Source of the DNA: Eledone cirrhosa
Lineage: Eukaryota
Direction of reading: 5' to 3'
NCBI GenBank assembly: GCA_964016885.1
Contig: OZ024741.1
Coordinates: 344,038,001 to 344,102,000, forward strand
DNA length: 64,000 nt
Both the position numbers and the translations under genes were made by a program. Numbering within the stretch: the stretch's first letter is position 1; the number at the start of each line of letters is the position of its first letter. This document shows positions 3,100-43,053 of this stretch, in pieces. Below the pieces are notes generated by a model. The model was not told where the DNA came from, made no database searches, and saw only the letters and a list, made by a program, of their open reading frames with translations.

Positions 3100-5810
3100 A
3101 TGTTTCTTTATTAGCCACAGGGGCACAAAAGAAGGAGACAAATACAAAGGGGGAAGTTTACATACAATAAAAACGTGTAAAATACTATCACAAATGCAAT
3201 TTAAAAATCAATCGATTTTCCCCAATAGAGGGAGACATTACATATGGGTAACACCCCCCACCCCCACCCCCCGAAAAAATGTGCAACCCTCATCTCCAGG
3301 AGTACAGGCTGATATAGAGAGAAAGCCCATTCACTCGGGCCATTCTCGCCACTTTCACCCACCTTTCATAAAACTTGCTGGGTACAGTACCTCACTCTCC
3401 ATCCTGATTATTTGAAGAAAAGAATCAGTTGTTGGCCAGAGAGAAAGGTGTCTGACCTCAGCTCTTTTAACCTCGTCCAGCATACAACCTCTCTCGCCAT
3501 AGATATCACACAAAGGAAAACCGCCTCTCCTTCGTTTTTGAAGGAGGGTGGCGGTTTGATCATGACAATGTACTCGGTGGTCAACCGGATTGGTCCCACC
3601 CGCGACAATAGTCGTTCTACATAGCCCCACAGGTCGGTAACGCCCAGGAAGTGTACGAATGCGTGCGCGACTGTTTCTTCGTCTCGCACGCATCTCGGAC
3701 AGATCGTTTTCGAAGGGTCCCTGCCCGGGCGCCCGTGTCTGTAGAGCTTGTCTCGAACTGGTAGAGATCCTCGGTAGCACTGCCAGGCCAGGTACTTTTG
3801 GAAGTTGTCCATCGGTCTCGGGTGGAAGGTCCTACCGAACAGACTGGCCAGTTCGTCCTCCTCTACGGCTAGAGTTTCTCCGAACGCGTCGTCGCACTTG
3901 CTGCGGATCAACCCTCTATAGAATTACGAAGTGGAGTCTCCACTGATCGCCGGGTCCGCCTGCCAGAGGGCTGTGACGACCTGAGCACATTCGATGTGCC
4001 AGTCGCCCATTTTTCTCGGTCTTTGCTTGACCCAGGACTGCAGCTCGGTCAGCGAGACGAGTCGTGGGAAGGCTCGCCTCACGAACGGAACCCACACCGG
4101 TTGTCCGGTGAGGAATACGTGGAGGTACTGCAGCCTGAGCGCGTGTTGTGCATCGTCAGCCACGGCATCCCCAGCCCTCCGTTGGAAGGGTGTTGGCAGC
4201 AGATGGATCTTCTCACCAAAGGAGCCCGCTTCTTCCAAAGAAATTGGAAGAGCGCGCGCTCCATTTTGGTGAGCGTTTTGGCTGGACAAGGTACGACGGT
4301 CAAGCGGTAGTAGATGACGGACGCTATAGAAGTCTTCACCACCTCCGCTCGACCTTTCAAGGACAGTTTGCACTCGGCCCACTTCTTGGTGAGTGCAAAC
4401 ACCTTGGCCGTCACTTCGTTCCAGTTCTTCTCCACCTGGAAGTCTGGACCAAACCAGACCCCGAGTAGCTTCACCGGTCCTTCCGCCCAGCGTCCGACGA
4501 CGCCATCGGAAGGTATCGGTTTGCCTCTCCACAATCCGAGTTGCAAACCAATGAACTTGTCCCGGTTCAGCTTCGCTCCTGTGAACCTTTCGTATTCCTT
4601 CAGTAAGTAGCCGACTTCCTCGATTTGCGAGGTGCTCGAAACCATTACTGTCACGTCGTCGGCGTAGGCCGACTCCGCTTTCCGCAGTCCCGGTTCCAGA
4701 GGGATGCCCTGCAATAGCTCCAACTTCCGTAGTAGTGGCTCGAGAGTCAGTACGTACAGAAGGGAGGAGAGAGGGCATCCCTGTCGGATGGATCGCATGA
4801 TATGGAACGGCTCCGATAGGTAGCCGTTCACCTTGACCCTTGAGCAGATATTGCTGCTGTGCATTGCAGCGAGCGATCCAGCCCCTGAACACGGGTCCGA
4901 AGCTTGCCGCCTCGAGCACCGCATCCAGGTAACGATGGTCAACCCTATCGAAAGCCTTAGACTGATCCAAGTTGATCAGGGCCCCACCCTACCCTCTCTA
5001 CGATGTATTGCATGAGGTGGAGGTTGTCTTGTATGGAACTGATCAGGATTGCGCATGTCTGCGCTTTTCCCACCAGGTTTTCGACGACAAGCGCCAGCCT
5101 CTTTGCCAACACCTTGGCCACAATCTGTAACTGTGTTTAGCAGAGTTATGGGCCTGAAATTGCCTGTGTCATCCCCCTTATTCTCGTTGTTCCTGACTAG
5201 CGTGACTAAGCCATTGGTCACACAATTGGGAATTCTCCCGTTCTGCTGCCAGTTGCAGTAGACCGCTTCCAGGAGAGCAGAGAACAAGTCCGGCATTGCT
5301 ACATAAAATTCGTAGGGTAGACACACGAGACCTGGAGATTTGTTTTGCAGCATTGGCTCAGCGTGTCTCCTATCTCAGCAGCCGAAATCGACCTTTTACA
5401 GAACTTCGCCTCGTTCTCCGAGAGTCGCGGCAGGCCGTCGAGGTATGGACCGAAATCCATAGCCCCTCTCGGCGCGCCGCCCTGCTCGAACAGTTGAGCA
5501 AAGTGCCGCTGAAAGGCCGTGAACATCTGCTTCGGCTCACGTATCACGCGTGCGTCTTGGTCCTTCAAAGACCGAATCGTGGACATGTTGCCACTTTTCG
5601 CCTCCATCACTCGAGCCCAGCTAACAGCTTTGGCTCCCTCGTTACCCAGAGCACGTATTTTGCTTCTGACAACGCAGCCCTCGTGCTTTGCGTTGAAGAA
5701 CTGGTCCAAGGCCGTTCTCGTCGCTAGCACGCTGGCTACGTTGCCACTTCTAATTGCCTCTTCTACTTTATCTACCAGTTCCTTCTCGGTCCTATTTCTA
5801 TCTAACGTAG
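3100..5810 (-). mobile_element. 5'-truncated, frameshifted Tx1-like (L1 clade) non-LTR retrotransposon, ORF2 remnant
   Basis: Collinear minus-strand ORF pieces: NKSPG..LPYEFY and NFRPITLLNT (4976-5353); DQSKAFDRVDH (3924-4970 start); IRQGCPLSSLLY and AYADDV (4079-4942); CPRC..ETVAHAF zinc-knuckle remnant (3408-3911). Much more GC-rich than the flanks. AATAAA on the minus strand at ~3107-3112. No endonuclease domain seen. Confidence 0.9.
4079..4942 (-). pseudogene. Reverse transcriptase core fragment of the Tx1-like LINE
   Basis: QGCPLS and YADD motifs, then LLGVWFG and LSLKGR; frameshifted relative to neighbouring pieces. Confidence 0.9.
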
Positions 5811-6084
5811 GTAGTTGGCTCGTTAGTATTAGGAGTTATAAGAGATTAATTTGATTGCTTATAATTTAAGCTGTTATGTCCATCCAGTTATTTTGATGTG
5901 ACCGTTATCTAAACTAATGTAGCGGTTCTCTTTGGTTCTGTATTTTATCTTTTTTTTATTTTAGCTTTCTATTTTATGCCGTAGTATTTCAATGATGGCA
6001 ATTTTTCCTTCTCAAGTTTAAAGGTAAAACCTATCAAGATATCAGCAATGGGTTAATTCTAGTGTAATCCTAGTTTCTGATTCA

Positions 6085-9544: not shown

Positions 9545-11121
9545 TTACAAAACTTCCTTATAGACTATATTTTGGGTTTTCTCGCGAGCTGCAAAGGCAA
9601 ATAGGTTATGTTGGCTCCCCACTCGAGAGCAGCCAACATATAGTTGACCATGGGAGAAGCACGGTTCTTCTAAATTAAGCCCTACGACCGTCAGCGTCTG
9701 ACCCTGTGATTTGTTAATCGACATGGCGAAGCTGAGTCGGAGAGGGAATTGCAGCCTTCTGAATGTGAAAGGAATGTCTTTACCGGATGGAATGAGAGGT
9801 ATCCTTGTTATGAAGACCGTATCCCCCTTACCACATAATGTAAGTATTGTTGCCTCAATAACATGAGGCTTTGCCTTTTGCATGACCAGACGCGTGCAGT
9901 TGGAAAGCCTTCGGGGTTCCAAATTTCTGAAGAGCATGACAGGAACACCTTTCTTAAGTTGCAGTAAGTGTGGTGGCAATCCGGGAGGGTCTAGAGAGTT
10001 AAGAAATTCTGTGGGGGTAATTAACAACTTCGTCCGGATCAGCCATAGAGTCAAGGGACTTGTAGACGTGCAGGTTTCCAGACAAGCACAGCATGAGCTG
10101 TTCATTGATGCTTCCAACTATGTAGTTTTTCGAAGCCAATATTGCGCGTTCACACAACCACTATTGATTTGTGTAGTTCTCCTCAAGATTAGGAAAAACA
10201 GACGTCCGTAACTCAGCAATTGACTTAACGCATCTGAAAATCCCCGTGAGGTCCGCTGTACCATCTCCGTCGAGTGGGACTTTACCATCTCCCAACAACA
10301 AAATGGCAGCAGCAAAACCCGCTGATGTCTCATCACCTTGTAGCTGTGCTCTTATGTTTGTTGTAAGCGTCAGCTTTCTTACATAACGCCAAAGTGAGGA
10401 GGCCTGAAGGCATGCACCAACCCCATCAGCCTGCGTACCTTTTGGGATTACAGGCAGAGTCTGTCGGATGTCCCCAGATAACAGGAAAGTGACACCTCCC
10501 ATTGGTTTTTGACAGTCCCTGATGTCTCTGAGTGATCTGTCTAATGCCTCGAAAGCCGCCCTGTGGGCCATTATGCATTCGTCCCAAACAATTAGTAGGC
10601 AGTGCTTTTCCGGAAGACTTGCTGATTTTGCACGTGGGTGTCTCAGATGATGCCATGTTGAGAGGAAGACTGAAGGCAGAATGGTCCGTCCTGTCACCAT
10701 GCAGCAAAGTTGCTACAATGCCGGAAGGAGCCACGGCCAATGCGATGTTTCCGTGTTGTCTCACTGCAGCGAGTAAAAGTTTGATTACAAATGTTTTGCC
10801 CGTGCCTCCAGGTGCGTCCAGGAAGAATATACCCCCTCCCCGATTACGAATGGAATGAACGACAATGTTGTAGGCTTGTTTTTGATCCAGTAGAAGGTTT
10901 GGTTCATTCTCTTCAACATACCTCTTGAGTTCGTCGACATCATATGATGTTTCACGTATAATGTCGTTGGGAATGTCAGATGTCGCATCTCGAAGTGTTT
11001 GCGGATGCCCATATTTCTCCAAGACATCTCCGCCCATTGAAGCCACTCTGTCTTCAATATCGATCAGAGCTCTGTTATATATAGCGTCTGAAAAGCCGAC
11101 ATCTAAGTTTTGAGTTTGCAA
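9545..11121 (-). pseudogene. PIF1-family SF1 helicase domain of Helitron RepHel (fragmented)
   Basis: Walker A DAPGGTGKT, Walker B IVWDE, GDIRQTLPV, FAMSINKSQGQT and HGQLYVGCSRV across ORFs 10426-11121, 10161-10700 and 9545-10117. Confidence 0.95.
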
Positions 11122-11357
11122 TTAAGCGAGACGCCTATATTCGTCTGCGAAATCTTCTTTAAACTTTTGCCATAAAGAGTAAGGATCGCTCAATTCACAG
11201 ACGTGCAAGAGGATAGTAAAAAGTGCTCTTAGACTACAGGATGATTGTGAGATGGCAGCTTCCGTCAAGGTTGCATCCCATTGTGCGTCATCTTCTCAAA
11301 GTCCACGCCTCAAGCAGGCTTCCCTGTACGTTCCGCAGGCGTATCCATCGACGATTC

Positions 11358-13288
11358 TCAGATGAGTGAAGCTAGTCGCAGGTAGAAGCATTGGTGTTGA
11401 GTAGGCTGGACCGTATAAACTCGCCCAAGGCAATTTTCGAATTTGATGCCTGGATGTCCAACCACCTCTTGTCCTACCTTCCTTCGTAGCCATTCTCTCC
11501 GGTTCCATGTATAGTAAGACGGTATTTCAGAATACAGCTGAGTTCGAGCGAAGTCGTCGAGTTGACAAAGTTTGAAAAAAGCGGTGAGTGTAGTTTCCTT
11601 TGGTGAGATCGCTGGCTGAGCAGCTGTTGGATCATTGAAATACACCCGTTGGCCGTTTTCAAGGTGAACGGCAAGTTGTTTAATGACGGGGTGTCGTTGG
11701 TGCAGTGGGAAGCTAAAAACGCGCCAAAAGGCTTCATCGCTGCTAATGTATCGGCCTGCTTGGTAGTCAGATACCTCGTCTCTACTGTTTTCATGACGAA
11801 GACCAAAGACGGCAGCATCCGATCCCTTGTTTACGTACTTACAAACGTATTTAATTGATTTTACTGAGTTGCAAAATTCGACGTTTATATGGGTGTTGAA
11901 TGTTTTCAAGAGGAGGGGGAAATATGGCACTATTCAGCTGTTGTCGATTTCGTGTTCACCAACTTTTGCTGTGAACCCACTGTCTGCAGGTCTCCTGCGC
12001 CTATACAACGGATATCCGTCACCACCAGTCTGTGTTTCCTGTAAAAACGGCCTGGGATATCGTTTTGTACACTTTCCGTCGTGTATGCACGGGGACTTCA
12101 TATTGAGTCCATGTCCGCAAGGACCATGGACCATTTTGATGTGACTATAGAGAAGAGCTCCTTGTCAATCGACAGATCAGGTAGTTCGGCAGAAATGAAT
12201 TTGTCGATGTAGTTTGAACTGATTTTTGTAACCAACCAAATCAAGATATGGCCATGCGGCAGCCCTCGTTTCTGCCATTCAACCGTGTACATGTCGCATC
12301 TGACAGGCCCCAAAACCTGTCCTTTCTTTAATAAATCCATTAATTTGGATACTTTCAGGCGAAACACTCTTGCTATGAGATTGTGCCTGTGTCTTGGCGC
12401 TTGACTGTGGAACAGTTCGTTTGTAATCTCCTTCCACTTGGGATTGCATGTAAACGTTATGAAAAGGTCGGGGCGCCCATAATGTCGTACGTAAGTCATG
12501 GCGTCCTGAGTCCTCTCGTGCATGTATCGGGGTTCCCCTGTGAACGTTGAAGGCAAAATACACACTTGCCCTAAATTGTCTGGGGATACGTCGTTGTTAA
12601 TTCCATCGCGTAGATGAATGTCGCATTCAGATCGAAGTTTCTTTTGATTTAATTTAATGAACCATAATCTCTCGGACTCCATTTTAACGGCCATATTAAC
12701 AGCAAATTGTTGGAAAATGTCCCGAGAACGGTGTAGATGGTTGAATGAATTGTCCCTTACCATAAATTGGAAAGCGTAGAAATCCATGCAGGTGACAGTT
12801 TTCCTAAGATGTGCCTCACCATTGCCTGCCGAATGTTGAGGAATGCCGAAATGGTATCCGTCCTCGCCGTTGACAAATAGCAATGGATAGTGGAGTGCAT
12901 CGTTGGACCTGTGTGTCTCATTGATACGCTGTAATGTGATGTCTCGGTGCTTTAGAATGATATCTCTCTTGTTGTGCTGTTCACCACAAATAACCGCAGC
13001 AATCTCATTACATGCTGGTGCCTTGAACCGACCAGCGTGTTCTCCAGATGGCCTTCGGTCAGCATGTATGACCACACTAAAGTTTTGGTCGGTGGCTGTT
13101 TCCAAAGCATACTTGAAACTGCGAACATAGCTGTTTTTGTCGTGAAGCATTTCTTGAAGTTTTATTATGGTTCCAATGTTAGTTTCGGACGAAATAGAGT
13201 TTCGCACCCTGCCTGTCCTGATAGTTTCCAACGAAGTATAACTGAAGAAATTGAGGATCCTTTTCTGCCATAGGCTGAGTAGAACCAA
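11358..13288 (-). pseudogene. HUH/Y2 Rep endonuclease domain of Helitron RepHel (fragmented)
   Basis: PDLFITFTCNPKW, VEWQKRGLPHGHIL (HUH), MVHGPCG and KYVCKYVNKG (two catalytic Tyr). Confidence 0.95.
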
Positions 13289-13990
13289 TCAAGTGGTAGA
13301 TCTGCCCCAAGACCTTAAAAGTTGGCATGAACCCACGTTCCGGGGAAAGCTTTGCTCCGAAGGATGTCATCTGAAACGCGGAATTGTAGCGGTGGATATT
13401 ACGCAGAAACTTCGATGACTCCTCCGTCGTGTCTGTCAAAAGGAGTTGCAATGTCTCTGGAGGGTCTAGAATAGGAGGTAGTCTAACTTTACCATTTGAA
13501 CAGCACATTCCATGTCTCTTACCTGGCCACTTTGTCATACGACAAAACTGACAATTTGAATATCTGCATGGACGGCGTAGTCGGAGGAGGGGTCGTAGTT
13601 AAAAGCCTTCAACAACCATCGTGAATTGCAAGTCCTAGAAATGCCATGTAACGATGATCGCCTCTGTTCACTTTGCAGAAGTCGGCCACGTCGTTGCTCT
13701 ATGGTTTCAGTATTTCGTGCAGCAGCAATGGCAGTGGCGTCCCTGCTTCGTCGAACGGCACGTCGTCCATCATCATTTCGTGTGCGAGCAGCAGCAGTCG
13801 CGGCAGCACTTTTGTTCCGTCGAAGTTCACGCCGACTGTCATCCTCCTCCGCCCTTGCAGCTGCCGTCTGCACAACATTCTGTGAGAGCCTGATCGCAGT
13901 TGCACTTAAATCTTCGGTGAGACGCCTTCGCTTAGACCTACTTGCATCATTAGATAATCGACCAATGAGAGTTCTTTTCTTGGAGGGCAT
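13179..13990 (-). pseudogene. N-terminal part of Helitron RepHel: 23-aa repeats plus zinc-finger remnant
   Basis: MPSKKR start; AAAR-initiated 23-aa repeats ending ETIEQRRGRL; MCCSNGKVRLP and YNSAFQMTSFG in the next frame. Confidence 0.85.
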
Positions 13991-14274
13991 TGTTTTTAGA
14001 AAATTAACCAGGGAGAACGATAAATAGTGGACAAATAACGTTTACGTAAGCAAAAAAACACGGATATAAATTGTGAAAAAATGTGATAAATCTATGTGGT
14101 CTGAGAAAGTGGGTGTTTTGCAAGATTTTGTGTACCAGTCAAATTTCAGGTTTTAAGTTAGGGGCAACGAAAAGTAAGAACTAACCATTGAAAGGATAGA
14201 GGCAAAAATGGCTGAAAAATCACAGCATGATAAACTGGAACCTTATGACCATAAACACATTAACTAAACCTCCT

Positions 14275-15000: not shown

Positions 15001-15105
15001 CCGTGTGTGTGTGTGTATGTAAAAGATAAACAGAAATAACAACACAATCAGTACAGTATATGGAAGGGATTTATTAGGTGAGCGCTTGATATAGCAGGAA
15101 GAGGG

Positions 15106-15141
15106 TCTTAACGTTTCGGACGCTAGTCCTTCATCAGAAGA
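15106..15141 (-). ncRNA. Minimal type I hammerhead ribozyme (family A repeat 15017-15200)
   Basis: Minus strand reads UCUU-CUGAUGA-A-GGAC(UAGC)GUCC-GAAA-C-GUU-AAGA: stem I UCUU/AAGA, palindromic ACGU stem III, GUU site. Confidence 0.75.
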
Positions 15142-15465
15142 AAGAATGATAAATAAGATAGATTGAGGGGACGGGCGGGATGGAATTGGAAAATATGTCT
15201 TTAGATAAAAATAACAGGTCCATTCATGTTGACATCTCTTGCAAAACTGTTGGTGCTGGCGTTTGTGTATGATTTATTTTTTAGAAAACTGGATGATGGA
15301 GCGAGTCTACATGAAATGGAAAAAAAACCCTTTTGTAAAAAGAGCTATACGTGTGTATATGTAAGTAAAAGAGTGTGCGTGCATGTAAAAAGAGCTAGAC
15401 TTGAGTACGTGCGTAAGCATGTGTTTGGGTGTGTGTTTGTGTATACGTCCGTACGAAGCTAAGAT

Positions 15466-41399: not shown

Positions 41400-41712
41400 A
41401 GTATAAAAGAAAAAACACAGGTAAGCATTAAGAGAAAGATTTTATCCGGGTATTTACGACCGTTTCATTGGTAAGTGCAACCTTATATTGCTATACTGCA
41501 AATAGCAGCCACTCAATTATAATTGTTGTTCACAGTCCAAATTTTCAAAATATTTTGAAAATTTTGAAAATTTGGACTGTGAACAACAATTATAATTGAG
41601 TGGCTGCTATTTGCAGTGTAGCAATATAAGGTTGCACTTACCAATGAAACGGTCTTAAATACCTGGATAAAATCCTTCTTATAATGCTTACCTGTGTTTT
41701 CTCTTTTATACT
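41400..41712. repeat. Long near-perfect palindrome, ~150-bp arms
   Basis: AGTATAAAAGA..TCCAAATTTTCAAAAT is mirrored through to TCTTTTATACT with scattered mismatches. Confidence 0.93.
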
Positions 41713-41725
41713 ATATATATATATA

Positions 41726-41885
41726 AAAGTGGTTACACAACAGTTAGTTCACCATACCGAGAACAATTGTTTCATCTTAGCGGATTCTCAGTTGGTAATG
41801 GGCATTACGTCCATTACGAGCTGAGGATCCGCTAAGGTGAAACAATTGTTCTCGCTATGGTGAACTAACTGTTATGTAACCACTT
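41726..41885. repeat. Inverted duplication containing back-to-back hammerhead motifs
   Basis: AAGTGGTTACA..GAGAACAATTGTTTCATCTTAGCGGATTCTCAG mirrors CTGAGGATCCGCTAAGGTGAAACAATTGTTCTC..TGTAACCACTT. Confidence 0.88.
41817..41854 (+). ncRNA. Minimal type I hammerhead motif
   Basis: CGAG-CUGAGGA-UCC(GCUAA)GGU-GAAA-CAAUU-GUU-CUCG: palindromic ACAAUUGU stem III, weak stem II. Confidence 0.7.
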
Positions 41886-42279
41886 CTACCAAATTCGTCC
41901 ACCGGACTGAGTGCTCTACCTCTACGCATATTACCTTCCAGTGTTCTACCACTATATATATATATATATAGGAATATAAATAACAACAACAACAACAACA
42001 CAGGAGTAAAAGTTACAAATGGTATTAGGTTCACGCTTAGTGAGAGTGGAGGATGTGGGTGCGACGTTTCGAGCATAATCCTTTCATCGAGAGAGTGTGT
42101 GCGAACTCCGAGAAGAAAAATGGAGAAAAAGATAAAGCATGAAGTGAAAAATAAAAGTTGTAAAAGGATGTGAGGCGTGTAGGGGTGGTGATACGTGGAG
42201 GAGCGGGGATGCAGGCGAAGAGGGGGAGGAAAAAATAGGTCCGAGCGGGGATATATATATACATACGTATATGTATACA

Positions 42280-42454: not shown

Positions 42455-42642
42455 TGTAATCTGAGTTTTTCGAATATTAATAATTGTTTCTACTTTAGGC
42501 ACAAGGCCAGCAATTAACCAGTGCATTACTGGTACTTTATTTTATATATTAATAATAACATTCGATTCGTTTGCAATTACGCAAACAAGCCTCATTTTAA
42601 AAGCCATGTCGGTAGAATGAACACTTCATTCTTGCTCTTGTG

Positions 42643-42722
42643 TTGGCATGTGAACAGAACTGCAGACACTAATGTTTCTGGGTATCACCCTTCATCAGTA
42701 CAGCTCACTGTTCACCTGCCAA
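42643..42722 (-). ncRNA. Full-length type I hammerhead ribozyme
   Basis: Minus strand reads UUGGCA-G-GUGAACAG-UG-AGCUGUA-CUGAUGA-A-GGGU(GAU)ACCC-A-GAAA-CA(UUAG)U-GUC-UGCAGUU-CUGUUCAC-A-UGCCAA: intact core, GUC site, ~21-bp stem I with a bulge. Confidence 0.88.
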
Positions 42723-42770
42723 TTGTCAAAGCTAGTGAAAATATATGCTATTTTCTAAAATATACACTGA

Positions 42771-42870
42771 CTGATCGGCCTGATTTGCATATTAGCAGAC
42801 TGGCTGATCAGTCAGATCTGCATATTAGCAGATCCACTGATTAGCCAGATTTACATATCAGCAGACTGGC
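42771..42870. repeat. 33-bp tandem repeat x3 with octamer-like motif
   Basis: Unit CTGATCGGCCTGATTTGCATATTAGCAGACTGG, with variants ATTTGCAT / ATCTGCAT / ATTTACAT. Confidence 0.85.
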
Positions 42871-43053
42871 CAGTCAGCTTCATTATTAATATTCAAAAAC
42901 ACTCAGATTACATTTATTGTATTCAGCCATGTAGAGCGAAATTGTTTTTATATATATGCATATATATATATATGTTTATATATATATATGTACATATATA
43001 TGTATATAAATATCTACATATATATGTACATATATGTATACATATATAGATAC

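What the first reader, a model, noticed from the sequence alone, without database searches (positions are those of the whole stretch)
42643..42870. Canonical full-length hammerhead just downstream of an octamer-containing 33-bp triple repeat
Seen: this is the best ribozyme candidate in the window. It has an intact core, a GUC site, a closed stem III and a long stem I with a UG bulge seven pairs from the core, where type I tertiary contacts with loop II usually form. About 50 bp upstream on the same (minus) strand lie three 33-bp units, one with a perfect ATGCAAAT and two with variants. Established: the octamer is a POU-factor site used in snRNA-type promoters, and hammerhead-bearing newt satellite 2 is transcribed from an snRNA-type promoter. 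Inference: a self-contained promoter-plus-ribozyme unit that may be active as a monomer.
Basis: partly seen in the sequence, partly recalled or inferred. Interest (0 to 1): 0.75.

Follow-up and report, generated by a model that had tools for sequence, protein, structure and literature searches.

The report
Hammerhead retrozyme carrying its own promoter
This is one truncated copy of a 440-base non-coding mobile element present more than a thousand times in a probable mollusc genome; it carries a predicted self-cutting hammerhead RNA and a likely snRNA-type promoter, and its insertion scars suggest copying from RNA circles by a Penelope-type retrotransposon, which would fill in steps so far mostly assumed for this known element class.

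Summary
The hammerhead and the three 33-bp units are real. Both belong to one 440-nt circularly permuted monomer; 1,104 exact copies of the ribozyme core lie in this genome, 644 with the octamer unit in register upstream. Copies are dispersed, 0.2-2.5 monomers long, end at fixed points in (TA)n, and often have a 5' inverted arm with a ~40-nt tail at one end only (77 of 83), the Penelope-like signature. cDNA 5' ends pile up from the predicted cut onward (5 of 58 at the exact base), while 51 of 98 cross it, fitting cleaved plus circular templates. Profiles from this genome's own snRNA genes place a single PSE-like site that would start RNA at the ribozyme's stem I; the octamer sits where U6 genes have it (-77), not at a vertebrate-style distal position. 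The repeats also form an RNA rod. Verdict: a new non-LTR retrozyme. The window copy has one ribozyme and could not release a full circle. No cleavage, expression or partner element was shown directly.

The parts
42456..42948 (-). Whole insertion between two (TA)n tracts: 5' inverted arm + truncated monomer + SINE remnant + 3' end
42882..42948 (+). 5' inverted arm (monomer positions 430-504, carries the ~40-nt tail); alignment runs on by chance into the TA tract to 42957
   Evidence: 89% to family majority
42546..42881 (-). 5'-truncated retrozyme monomer, positions 105-440 of 440
   Evidence: 95.8% to family majority
42766..42868 (-). Three 33-bp units built of quasi-palindromes; predicted long RNA rod with apex in unit 2
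   Evidence: z -6.0
42783..42790 (-). ATGCAAAT, at about -73 to -77 from the predicted start, the position of the same motif in this genome's U6 promoters
42849..42856 (-). ATGTAAAT (ATGCAAAT in the family majority), unit 1
42816..42823 (-). ATGCAGAT variant, unit 2; forms the stem at the apex of the rod
42738..42779 (-). PSE-like site (ATCAGT at 42775-42770) plus AT-rich TATA-like stretch at 42745; best match to a profile of 16 host Pol II snRNA promoters
   Evidence: window copy scores 16.7
42713..42719 (-). Predicted transcription start (42719-42716 by Pol II spacing, 42714-42712 by U6 spacing); inferred
42643..42722 (-). Type I hammerhead: stem I 42722-42699 with 42664-42643, UG bulge 42707-42706, core 42698-42692 and 42678-42675, A·A at 10.1/11.1, stem II 42690-42680, stem III 42675-42666
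42664..42665 (-). Predicted cleavage site, after C17 (42665)
   Evidence: cDNA-end pile-up
42485..42545 (-). 3' remnant of a ~190-bp tRNA-type SINE carried by a subfamily, flanked by a duplication of monomer 430-440
   Evidence: junction in 17 of 60 and 7 of 76 loci
42456..42484 (-). 3' end at the main priming point (monomer ~464), joined to (TA)n

Best explanation
This is a 5'-truncated copy of a dispersed, non-coding 440-nt hammerhead-bearing repeat, a non-LTR retrozyme, that is likely transcribed from an internal snRNA-type promoter, is predicted to cut itself into monomers that would circularise, and is likely copied into TA microsatellites by a Neptune-type Penelope reverse transcriptase. 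Shown by sequence: monomer length and permutation, copy number, partial tandems up to 2.47 monomers, fixed 3' ends in (TA)n, 5' inversions, one-sided tail, ribozyme-promoter linkage. Inferred steps: (1) Pol II starts at about 42717, just inside the outer stem I (my odds 0.55-0.6). (2) The ribozyme removes a ~53-nt leader; in loci holding promoter plus two ribozymes (12 of 36 dimer loci) a second cut frees a 440-nt monomer (cleavage in vivo, 0.8). (3) The monomer is ligated and folds into a rod-rich circle whose core is mostly buried (0.65). (4) The Penelope enzyme nicks (TA)n and primes on both strands at UUUAU sites 40 nt apart, 143 and 183 nt past the cut. It stops at the cut or in stem I on linear RNA and rolls past it on circles (0.85 for Penelope as mobiliser). 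Only copies of about 1.6 turns or more regenerate a source locus. The window copy could be transcribed and cut but would yield no full monomer.
For: Copy number: 1,104, 1,498, 644 linked, controls 0. Permuted 440-nt monomer with partial tandems. 39 two-core places, none adjacent at 440 spacing; the longest of 36 loci is 1,088 nt and still has a random 5' end and a fixed 3' end. 3' end into TA in 131 of 166 loci, 5' inversion in 109 of 166; of 83 inverted loci with both ends classifiable, 77 have the tail at one end only, matching the PLE description in PMC8557442 (passages). In 98 segments sampled blind to the ribozyme: 28 start at 318-343, 5 of 58 at risk exactly at 322 (0.23 expected from background, 0.84 from the local rate, P=0.002), 0 of 89 at the three other upstream TGCA sites (P=0.009); 51 of 98 cross the cut, 11 of 98 exceed one monomer. 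Circular fold -171 vs -105 +/- 6.4 kcal/mol, 60 shuffles; 2 of 14 common variants break predicted pairs vs 53% of rare ones, P=0.004. Promoter profile: one site, 11.4 vs next -5.0, shuffle P 0.0007-0.003 in 5 of 6 window choices. RT + C-x4-C-x2-C + GIY-YIG elements with open frames up to 938 and 1,096 aa are in the genome. A U6atac retrocopy is fused tail-to-tail to an inverted retrozyme arm (L338).
Against: No cleavage, circle or transcript was observed. No pLTR homology between the monomer and 47 PLE loci (best E 0.03), so the partner is not identified. A10.1·A11.1 and the buried core may make the ribozyme slow; in the Xenopus preprint 8 of 9 tested dimers did not cleave. All five exact stops have 1-4 nt of microhomology with the inverted arm, and two share a similar junction. 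The promoter match was seen by eye before the profile was built. It lacks the upstream AATTAAWT and the distal TTAYYTCCCTT elements of host snRNA genes, fails when 40 nt upstream are included (P 0.75), and weakens without the U2 promoters (3.1, P 0.075). TA-rich background reached 10-11 in 2 of 17 PLE 3' stretches. No pile-up of cDNA ends at the predicted start. Unlike described retrozymes, no long arrays were found.
Confidence: 0.72

Rival explanations
1. Same element and same mobiliser, but no covalent circle: the enzyme jumps across the nick of a cleaved monomer whose ends are held together by stems I and III, or copies uncleaved multimeric transcripts because the ribozyme is slow.
For: A·A at the base of stem II and a buried core; stops at and just past the cut show linear templates exist; L338 shows the enzyme can use two different RNAs in one insertion.
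Against: No long source array among 39 dimer places; linear copying from a promoter-containing locus loses the promoter each round; structure-preserving variants across the whole monomer; circles are shown for coral, mussel and axolotl retrozymes (PMC7229834, parts 2-4 of 6 read).
Confidence: 0.2
2. The promoter is U6-like and read by Pol III: octamer-like element at -77, start at about 42713, stop at the T4/T8 run (monomer 490-502), giving a ~230-nt RNA cut to ~180 nt; longer copies come from occasional read-through.
For: 4 of 4 retained U6/U6atac promoters have ATG[CG][AT]AAT at -76..-78 and the monomer's best match gives the same start region; tail ends cluster at 488-510, at the T run.
Against: Score 8.3 is below all four leave-one-out scores (11.4-23.6), about 5% per monomer by chance; 34 of 98 segments include the PSE and 51 cross the cut, which a Pol III RNA ending at the T run cannot supply; the TATA-like stretch is poor.
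Confidence: 0.12
3. The repeats are only an RNA structural rod; octamer and PSE matches are chance, and transcription comes from host read-through or from the captured SINE.
For: Rod z -6.0; units are quasi-palindromes; octamers diverge no less than their surroundings in any telling way (3.0-4.2% vs 4.9%; uninformative for dead copies); missing upstream and distal elements.
Against: One unique profile site per monomer at shuffle P<=0.003, placing the start within a few bases of stem I; an independent U6-type motif points to the same start. The SINE junction is in only 24 of 136 loci and is followed by a T run.
Confidence: 0.3
4. The insertion is a MITE with terminal inverted repeats and TA target duplication, or a solo pLTR of an autonomous Penelope element.
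For: The window copy has inverted ends in TA; PLEs are abundant here; retrozymes resemble pLTRs in Xenopus (preprint).
Against: Inverted arms vary from absent (57 of 166) to hundreds of bases and the two ends differ by the tail; the sequence upstream of a monomer is the previous monomer, never an ORF, in the loci mapped; no homology to 47 PLE loci.
Confidence: 0.06

Closest known systems
Metazoan non-LTR retrozymes (Cervera and de la Pena 2020, PMC7229834; parts 2-4 of 6 and passages read; supplement not readable)
   Same: Non-coding 150-450-bp unit, type I hammerhead with full stems, GC 39%, head-to-tail copies, strongly self-paired predicted circle, PLEs in the same genome; the mussel circle also has a blocked ribozyme; axolotl Amex2 has a mismatch (U·U) at the base of helix II.
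   Different: Here copies are dispersed 0.2-2.5-mers, not arrays up to 62-mers; the mismatch is A·A; an internal promoter and the insertion-end pattern were not described in the parts read; no cephalopod is mentioned in that text.
Newt satellite 2 (Coats, Zhang and Epstein 1994; seen only as cited in PMC2220036; originals not held)
   Same: Hammerhead repeat with an internal snRNA-type promoter read by Pol II; stem I extension with an internal bulge (PMC6155905 passages).
   Different: Newt stem III is a single pair; here 3 bp. That the newt promoter uses a distal octamer is recalled, not read; here the octamer is proximal and host Pol II snRNA genes have none. A recalled likeness of stem II to the newt ribozyme could not be checked.
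Neptune-type Penelope-like elements (Craig et al. 2021, PMC8557442, passages; Cervera and de la Pena 2014, PMC4209133, part 2 of 4)
   Same: 5' truncation, partial tandems, 5' inverted copy, 30-40-bp tail at one end, microsatellite targeting, an extra nucleotide between hammerhead positions 9 and 10.1.
   Different: No ORF; a full rather than minimal hammerhead; no pLTR homologue found among 47 PLE loci.
Vertebrate retrozymes as non-autonomous PLEs (Li, Clavereau and Pollet 2026 preprint 10.64898/2026.07.22.740005; parts 1-3 of 5 read)
   Same: Same proposed relationship; monomers dispersed, dimers rarer.
   Different: Their evidence is co-occurrence and pLTR homology in vertebrates; here it is insertion signature and cDNA ends in an invertebrate, without pLTR homology.

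Membership tests
Type I hammerhead ribozyme | Core CUGANGA, GAAA, UH and three helices, open helix I | tested here: met
Type I hammerhead ribozyme | R10.1-Y11.1 (usually G-C) pair closing helix II | tested here: not met
   A·A, family-wide; natural U·U variants exist (PMC3088659 passage; PMC7229834), so this lowers 'canonical', not 'hammerhead'
Type I hammerhead ribozyme | Match to an Rfam hammerhead model | tested here: not met
   no hit at E<=10
Type I hammerhead ribozyme | Self-cleavage | not testable with these tools
   indirect only: cDNA 5' ends at the predicted cut
Type I hammerhead ribozyme | Loop I-loop II tertiary contact | not tested
   UG bulge present 7 bp from the core; contact not modelled
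Non-LTR retrozyme | 150-450-bp non-coding, low-GC unit with one type I hammerhead | tested here: met
   440 nt, GC 0.39, longest sense ATG frame 57 aa
Non-LTR retrozyme | Tandem copies with at least two complete hammerheads | tested here: met
   39 two-core places in the genome, one 2.47-mer; not met by the window copy itself
Non-LTR retrozyme | No LTR/PBS/PPT organisation | tested here: met
   permuted monomer maps of 166 loci show no unique central region; PBS not searched separately
Non-LTR retrozyme | Expressed as circular RNA | not testable with these tools
   predicted circle z -10.3; copies cross up to three cut sites
Non-autonomous Penelope-like element | 5' truncation, partial tandem, 5' inversion, one-sided 30-40-bp tail, microsatellite target | tested here: met
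   109 of 166 inverted, 77 of 83 one-sided tail, 131 of 166 into TA
Non-autonomous Penelope-like element | Sequence homology to the pLTR of an autonomous PLE | tested here: inconclusive
   none in 47 of 50 fetched PLE loci (3 set aside because they hold retrozyme copies); only 150 of 10,596 GIY-YIG candidates were scored
snRNA-type (SNAPc) promoter | PSE at the host's spacing from a start | tested here: met
   single profile site, P<=0.003 in 5 of 6 window choices; weaker without U2
snRNA-type (SNAPc) promoter | Host upstream and distal elements (AATTAAWT near -88, TTAYYTCCCTT near -260) | tested here: not met
snRNA-type (SNAPc) promoter | Transcription start mapped at the predicted site | not testable with these tools
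   no stranded raw RNA reads offered
MITE | Constant terminal inverted repeats | tested here: not met
   arms absent in 57 of 166 and variable in length

The most novel reading that the evidence does not exclude
A 440-nt RNA circle that carries, in one unit, a host-matched snRNA promoter aimed at its own ribozyme, a self-blocking hammerhead and two priming sites for a Penelope enzyme: a minimal self-renewing replicon whose every step (start, cut, ligation, two-strand priming, rolling copy) can be read from genomic copies. If newt satellite 2 shares this plan, SNAPc-driven transcription would be a general, overlooked feature of animal retrozymes and would explain their constitutive high expression.
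Probability: 0.35. Interest if true: 0.72.

Novelty: new member of a known kind. Interest (0 to 1): 0.5.

Why it matters
Animal retrozymes are known, but how they are transcribed and what moves them are mostly proposed, not shown, in the papers read. This family gives countable genomic evidence on both: a Penelope-type insertion signature, cDNA ends at the predicted cut, and a promoter predicted from the host's own snRNA genes. It yields sharp, cheap tests (start at 42719-42713, cut at 42665/42664, a 440-nt circle) and a natural A10.1·A11.1 hammerhead. The same analysis also outlines snRNA promoter elements for a probable cephalopod. The window copy itself is an ordinary dead-end member.

Tried and rejected
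Rfam: no hammerhead hit; miRNA hits are simple hairpins and TA repeats. Sequencing runs: no RNA holder listed; three runs of unrecorded kind, contigs only, hold the family but say nothing on expression. Autonomous partner: 50 GIY-YIG loci fetched, no homology to the monomer; three loci held retrozyme copies, read as neighbours, not tested further. Master array: the C3 locus with four dimers is a tandem tRNA-Thr gene array carrying an inserted 1.3-mer. Octamer conservation across copies: no signal, and none is expected in dead copies. cDNA ends at the predicted start: no pile-up. First SINE count failed from a script flaw (0 of 137) and was redone. Rows dropped before counts: L157 as a duplicate of L156 (99 to 98 segments); near-identical tandem snRNA promoters collapsed; U6 loci L285 (SINE-interrupted), L292, L293, nine of ten U6atac loci and U4 L327 left out for lacking the shared motif, which favours a clean profile; L101, L131, L134 left out of backgrounds. 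Newt papers not held; the supplement of PMC7229834, with the axolotl and mussel sequences, was not readable and may show a close relative. Paper searches that found no description of this family; the O. vulgaris repeat paper has no 'ribozyme' or 'retrozyme' in its main text. Earlier scan notes: nothing by sequence or in this genome.

Full report
Observation. The minus strand holds a type I hammerhead at 42722-42643 with an intact core, GUC at 42667-42665, a 7-bp stem I, a UG bulge and two further helices. Positions 10.1 and 11.1 are both A, in this copy and in 179 of 181 and 178 of 185 aligned copies. The cut follows C17 at 42665, so it lies at 42665/42664. The predicted lowest-energy fold pairs the core with loop III; the active fold is 6.5 kcal/mol higher. 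Rfam does not recognise it. The three 33-bp units are at 42766-42868 with the octamer and two variants as described.

What it belongs to. A search of the window's own 3.0-Gb genome gave 2,376 candidates, 40 scored, at 93-96% identity. Exact patterns gave 1,104 copies of the ribozyme core, 1,498 of a 3' 37-mer and 644 with the octamer unit in register upstream of the core, all controls 0. Mapping copies shows a circularly permuted 440-nt monomer, GC 0.39, non-coding on the sense strand. Of 66 cores in 60 loci chosen only on the core, 48 have at least one repeat unit upstream and 27 have three or more; 18 are truncated before them. The window copy is monomer 105-440 (95.8% to the family majority), with a 5' inverted arm, a SINE remnant and a 3' end in (TA)n.

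How it inserts. In 166 loci, 131 end in TA and 109 have a 5' inverted arm. In 83 inverted loci both outer ends fall in one of two classes, near monomer 464-469 or near 488-510; 77 have one of each. PMC8557442 (passages) lists 5' truncation, partial tandems, a 5' inverted copy, a 30-40-bp tail at one end and microsatellite bias as PLE features. The genome has many RT + C-x4-C-x2-C + GIY-YIG elements, with open frames up to 938 and 1,096 aa. No pLTR homology to the monomer was found in 47 loci, so the partner is inferred from behaviour. A U6atac copy fused to an inverted arm (L338) shows the same process can use other small RNAs.

Evidence on cleavage and circles. I took the first 100 listed matches of the 3' 37-mer on contig 1 (of 1,498), a sample blind to the ribozyme, and recovered 99 segments, 98 after dropping one duplicate. 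Twenty-eight start at 318-343, twelve of them at 335-338 at the foot of stem I, which may be structural stalling. Five of 58 still extending stop exactly at 322, the first base after the cut: 0.23 expected from the upstream rate, 0.84 from the local rate (P=0.002). The three other upstream TGCA sites have 0 of 89 (P=0.009). All five junctions carry 1-4 nt of microhomology and two look alike, so the position is uncertain by a few bases. In 326 segments from all loci, a set biased towards long copies, 12 start at 321-324 and 5 at 312-320. Fifty-one of 98 cross the cut and 11 exceed one monomer. Thirty-nine places hold two cores 440 apart, none adjacent; the longest of 36 loci is 2.47 monomers and has the ends of a product, not of an array. 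The circular monomer folds at -171 kcal/mol against -105 +/- 6.4 for 60 shuffles, and 2 of 14 common variants break a predicted pair against 53% of rare ones (P=0.004). A circle is the simplest template; jumping across a nicked monomer fits equally on sequence alone.

The promoter. I fetched this genome's U1, U2, U4, U5, U6 and U6atac loci. None of 28 Pol II upstream rows has an octamer within 320 nt. They share a CAG-centred element at -54..-57 and a TATA-like stretch near -30. A profile from 16 non-redundant promoters finds one site in the monomer (11.4, next -5.0; 1.2e-5 per position in 604,320 background positions), above 4 of the 16 leave-one-out scores; the window copy scores 16.7. It predicts a start at 42719-42716, the 5' edge of stem I. 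Shuffle P is 0.0007-0.003 for five window choices, 0.75 when 40 upstream bases are added, and 0.075 without U2. Four retained U6-type promoters have the octamer-like motif at -76..-78; the monomer's octamer 3 predicts a start 4-5 nt further on, with a weaker score (8.3, below all four). The host's -88 and -260 elements are absent. I saw the likeness before building the profile, and dropped promoters lacking the motif. The same repeats form a long RNA rod (z -6.0). Pol II is preferred because Pol III would stop at the T4/T8 run at monomer 490-502, while 34 of 98 segments include the PSE.

Mechanism. Inferred cycle: start at stem I, removal of a ~53-nt leader, second cut 440 nt later in loci with promoter plus two ribozymes (12 of 36 dimer loci by my reading), ligation, then two-strand priming on (TA)n by a Neptune-type enzyme at sites 40 nt apart. 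Short copies stop at or before the cut; long ones roll past it and rarely rebuild a source. The window copy has promoter and one ribozyme only.

Comparison and novelty. It meets the sequence-level definition of a non-LTR retrozyme (PMC7229834, parts 2-4 of 6 read; supplement not readable) and fits the proposal that these are non-autonomous PLEs (preprint 10.64898/2026.07.22.740005, parts 1-3 of 5 read; PMC4209133, part 2 of 4). Newt satellite 2 has an internal snRNA promoter (seen only as cited in PMC2220036), so the plan has a precedent. Ten paper searches (listings and abstracts' starts) showed no description of this family; repeat databases were not searchable and may hold it as an unnamed repeat. 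Other papers were seen as passages only (PMC6155905, PMC3088659, PMC13282606, PMC13652810, PMC7936874, PMC5680766). Earlier scan notes on other genomes describe similar elements and were not checked. Verdict: a new member of a known kind, with unusually legible evidence for its promoter, cleavage and mobiliser, none yet shown at the bench. Interest 0.5.

Noticed in passing
L249-L343 (snRNA gene loci of G000): Host snRNA promoter grammar: Pol II genes share AATTAAWT near -88, (A/G)TCAGT near -57 and a TATA-like stretch near -30; U6/U6atac share ATG[CG][AT]AAT.AG at -76..-78 plus TATA at -30; most U1, U2 and U6 genes share TTAYYTCCCTT at -254..-288. Useful for building U6 vectors.
   Followed up: partly
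L338:1200-1625: U6atac retrocopy fused tail-to-tail to an inverted retrozyme arm between microsatellites: one insertion made from two different RNAs.
   Followed up: partly
L217-L218: About 2-kb tandem array of tRNA-Thr(AGT) genes; four units carry the same inserted 1.3-mer retrozyme.
   Followed up: partly
L068, L071, L237 and window 42485-42545: A subfamily carries a ~190-bp tRNA-type SINE with A- and B-box-like motifs inside the monomer and has been re-amplified with it (junction in 24 of 136 loci). The same SINE interrupts a U6 promoter in L285.
   Followed up: partly
window 15100-15150, minus strand: Minimal Penelope-type hammerhead (extra A before helix II, palindromic short helix III) in a probable pLTR remnant ending in (AC)n/(AT)n.
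   Followed up: no
window 42050-42100, minus strand: Degenerate minimal hammerhead of another probable Penelope terminal repeat, just beyond the 3' TA tract.
   Followed up: no
window 41503-41609 and 41730-41882: Two long near-perfect hairpins (MITE-like); the second contains CTGAGGA...GAAAC.
   Followed up: no
window 9548-14041 and 3358-5835, minus strand: Broken Helitron Rep/helicase (Pfam Helitron_like_N) and fragments that read like a LINE reverse transcriptase (no Pfam hit for the one piece scanned).
   Followed up: partly
L124, L125, L129, L135: A Neptune-like family whose minimal hammerhead has U·U at the base of helix II and whose 3' ends fall at two points about 50 nt apart, one straight into (TA)n: a candidate partner by behaviour, not by sequence.
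   Followed up: partly
family monomer, antisense strand: A 129-codon ATG frame on the antisense strand of the doubled monomer; probably chance.
   Followed up: no
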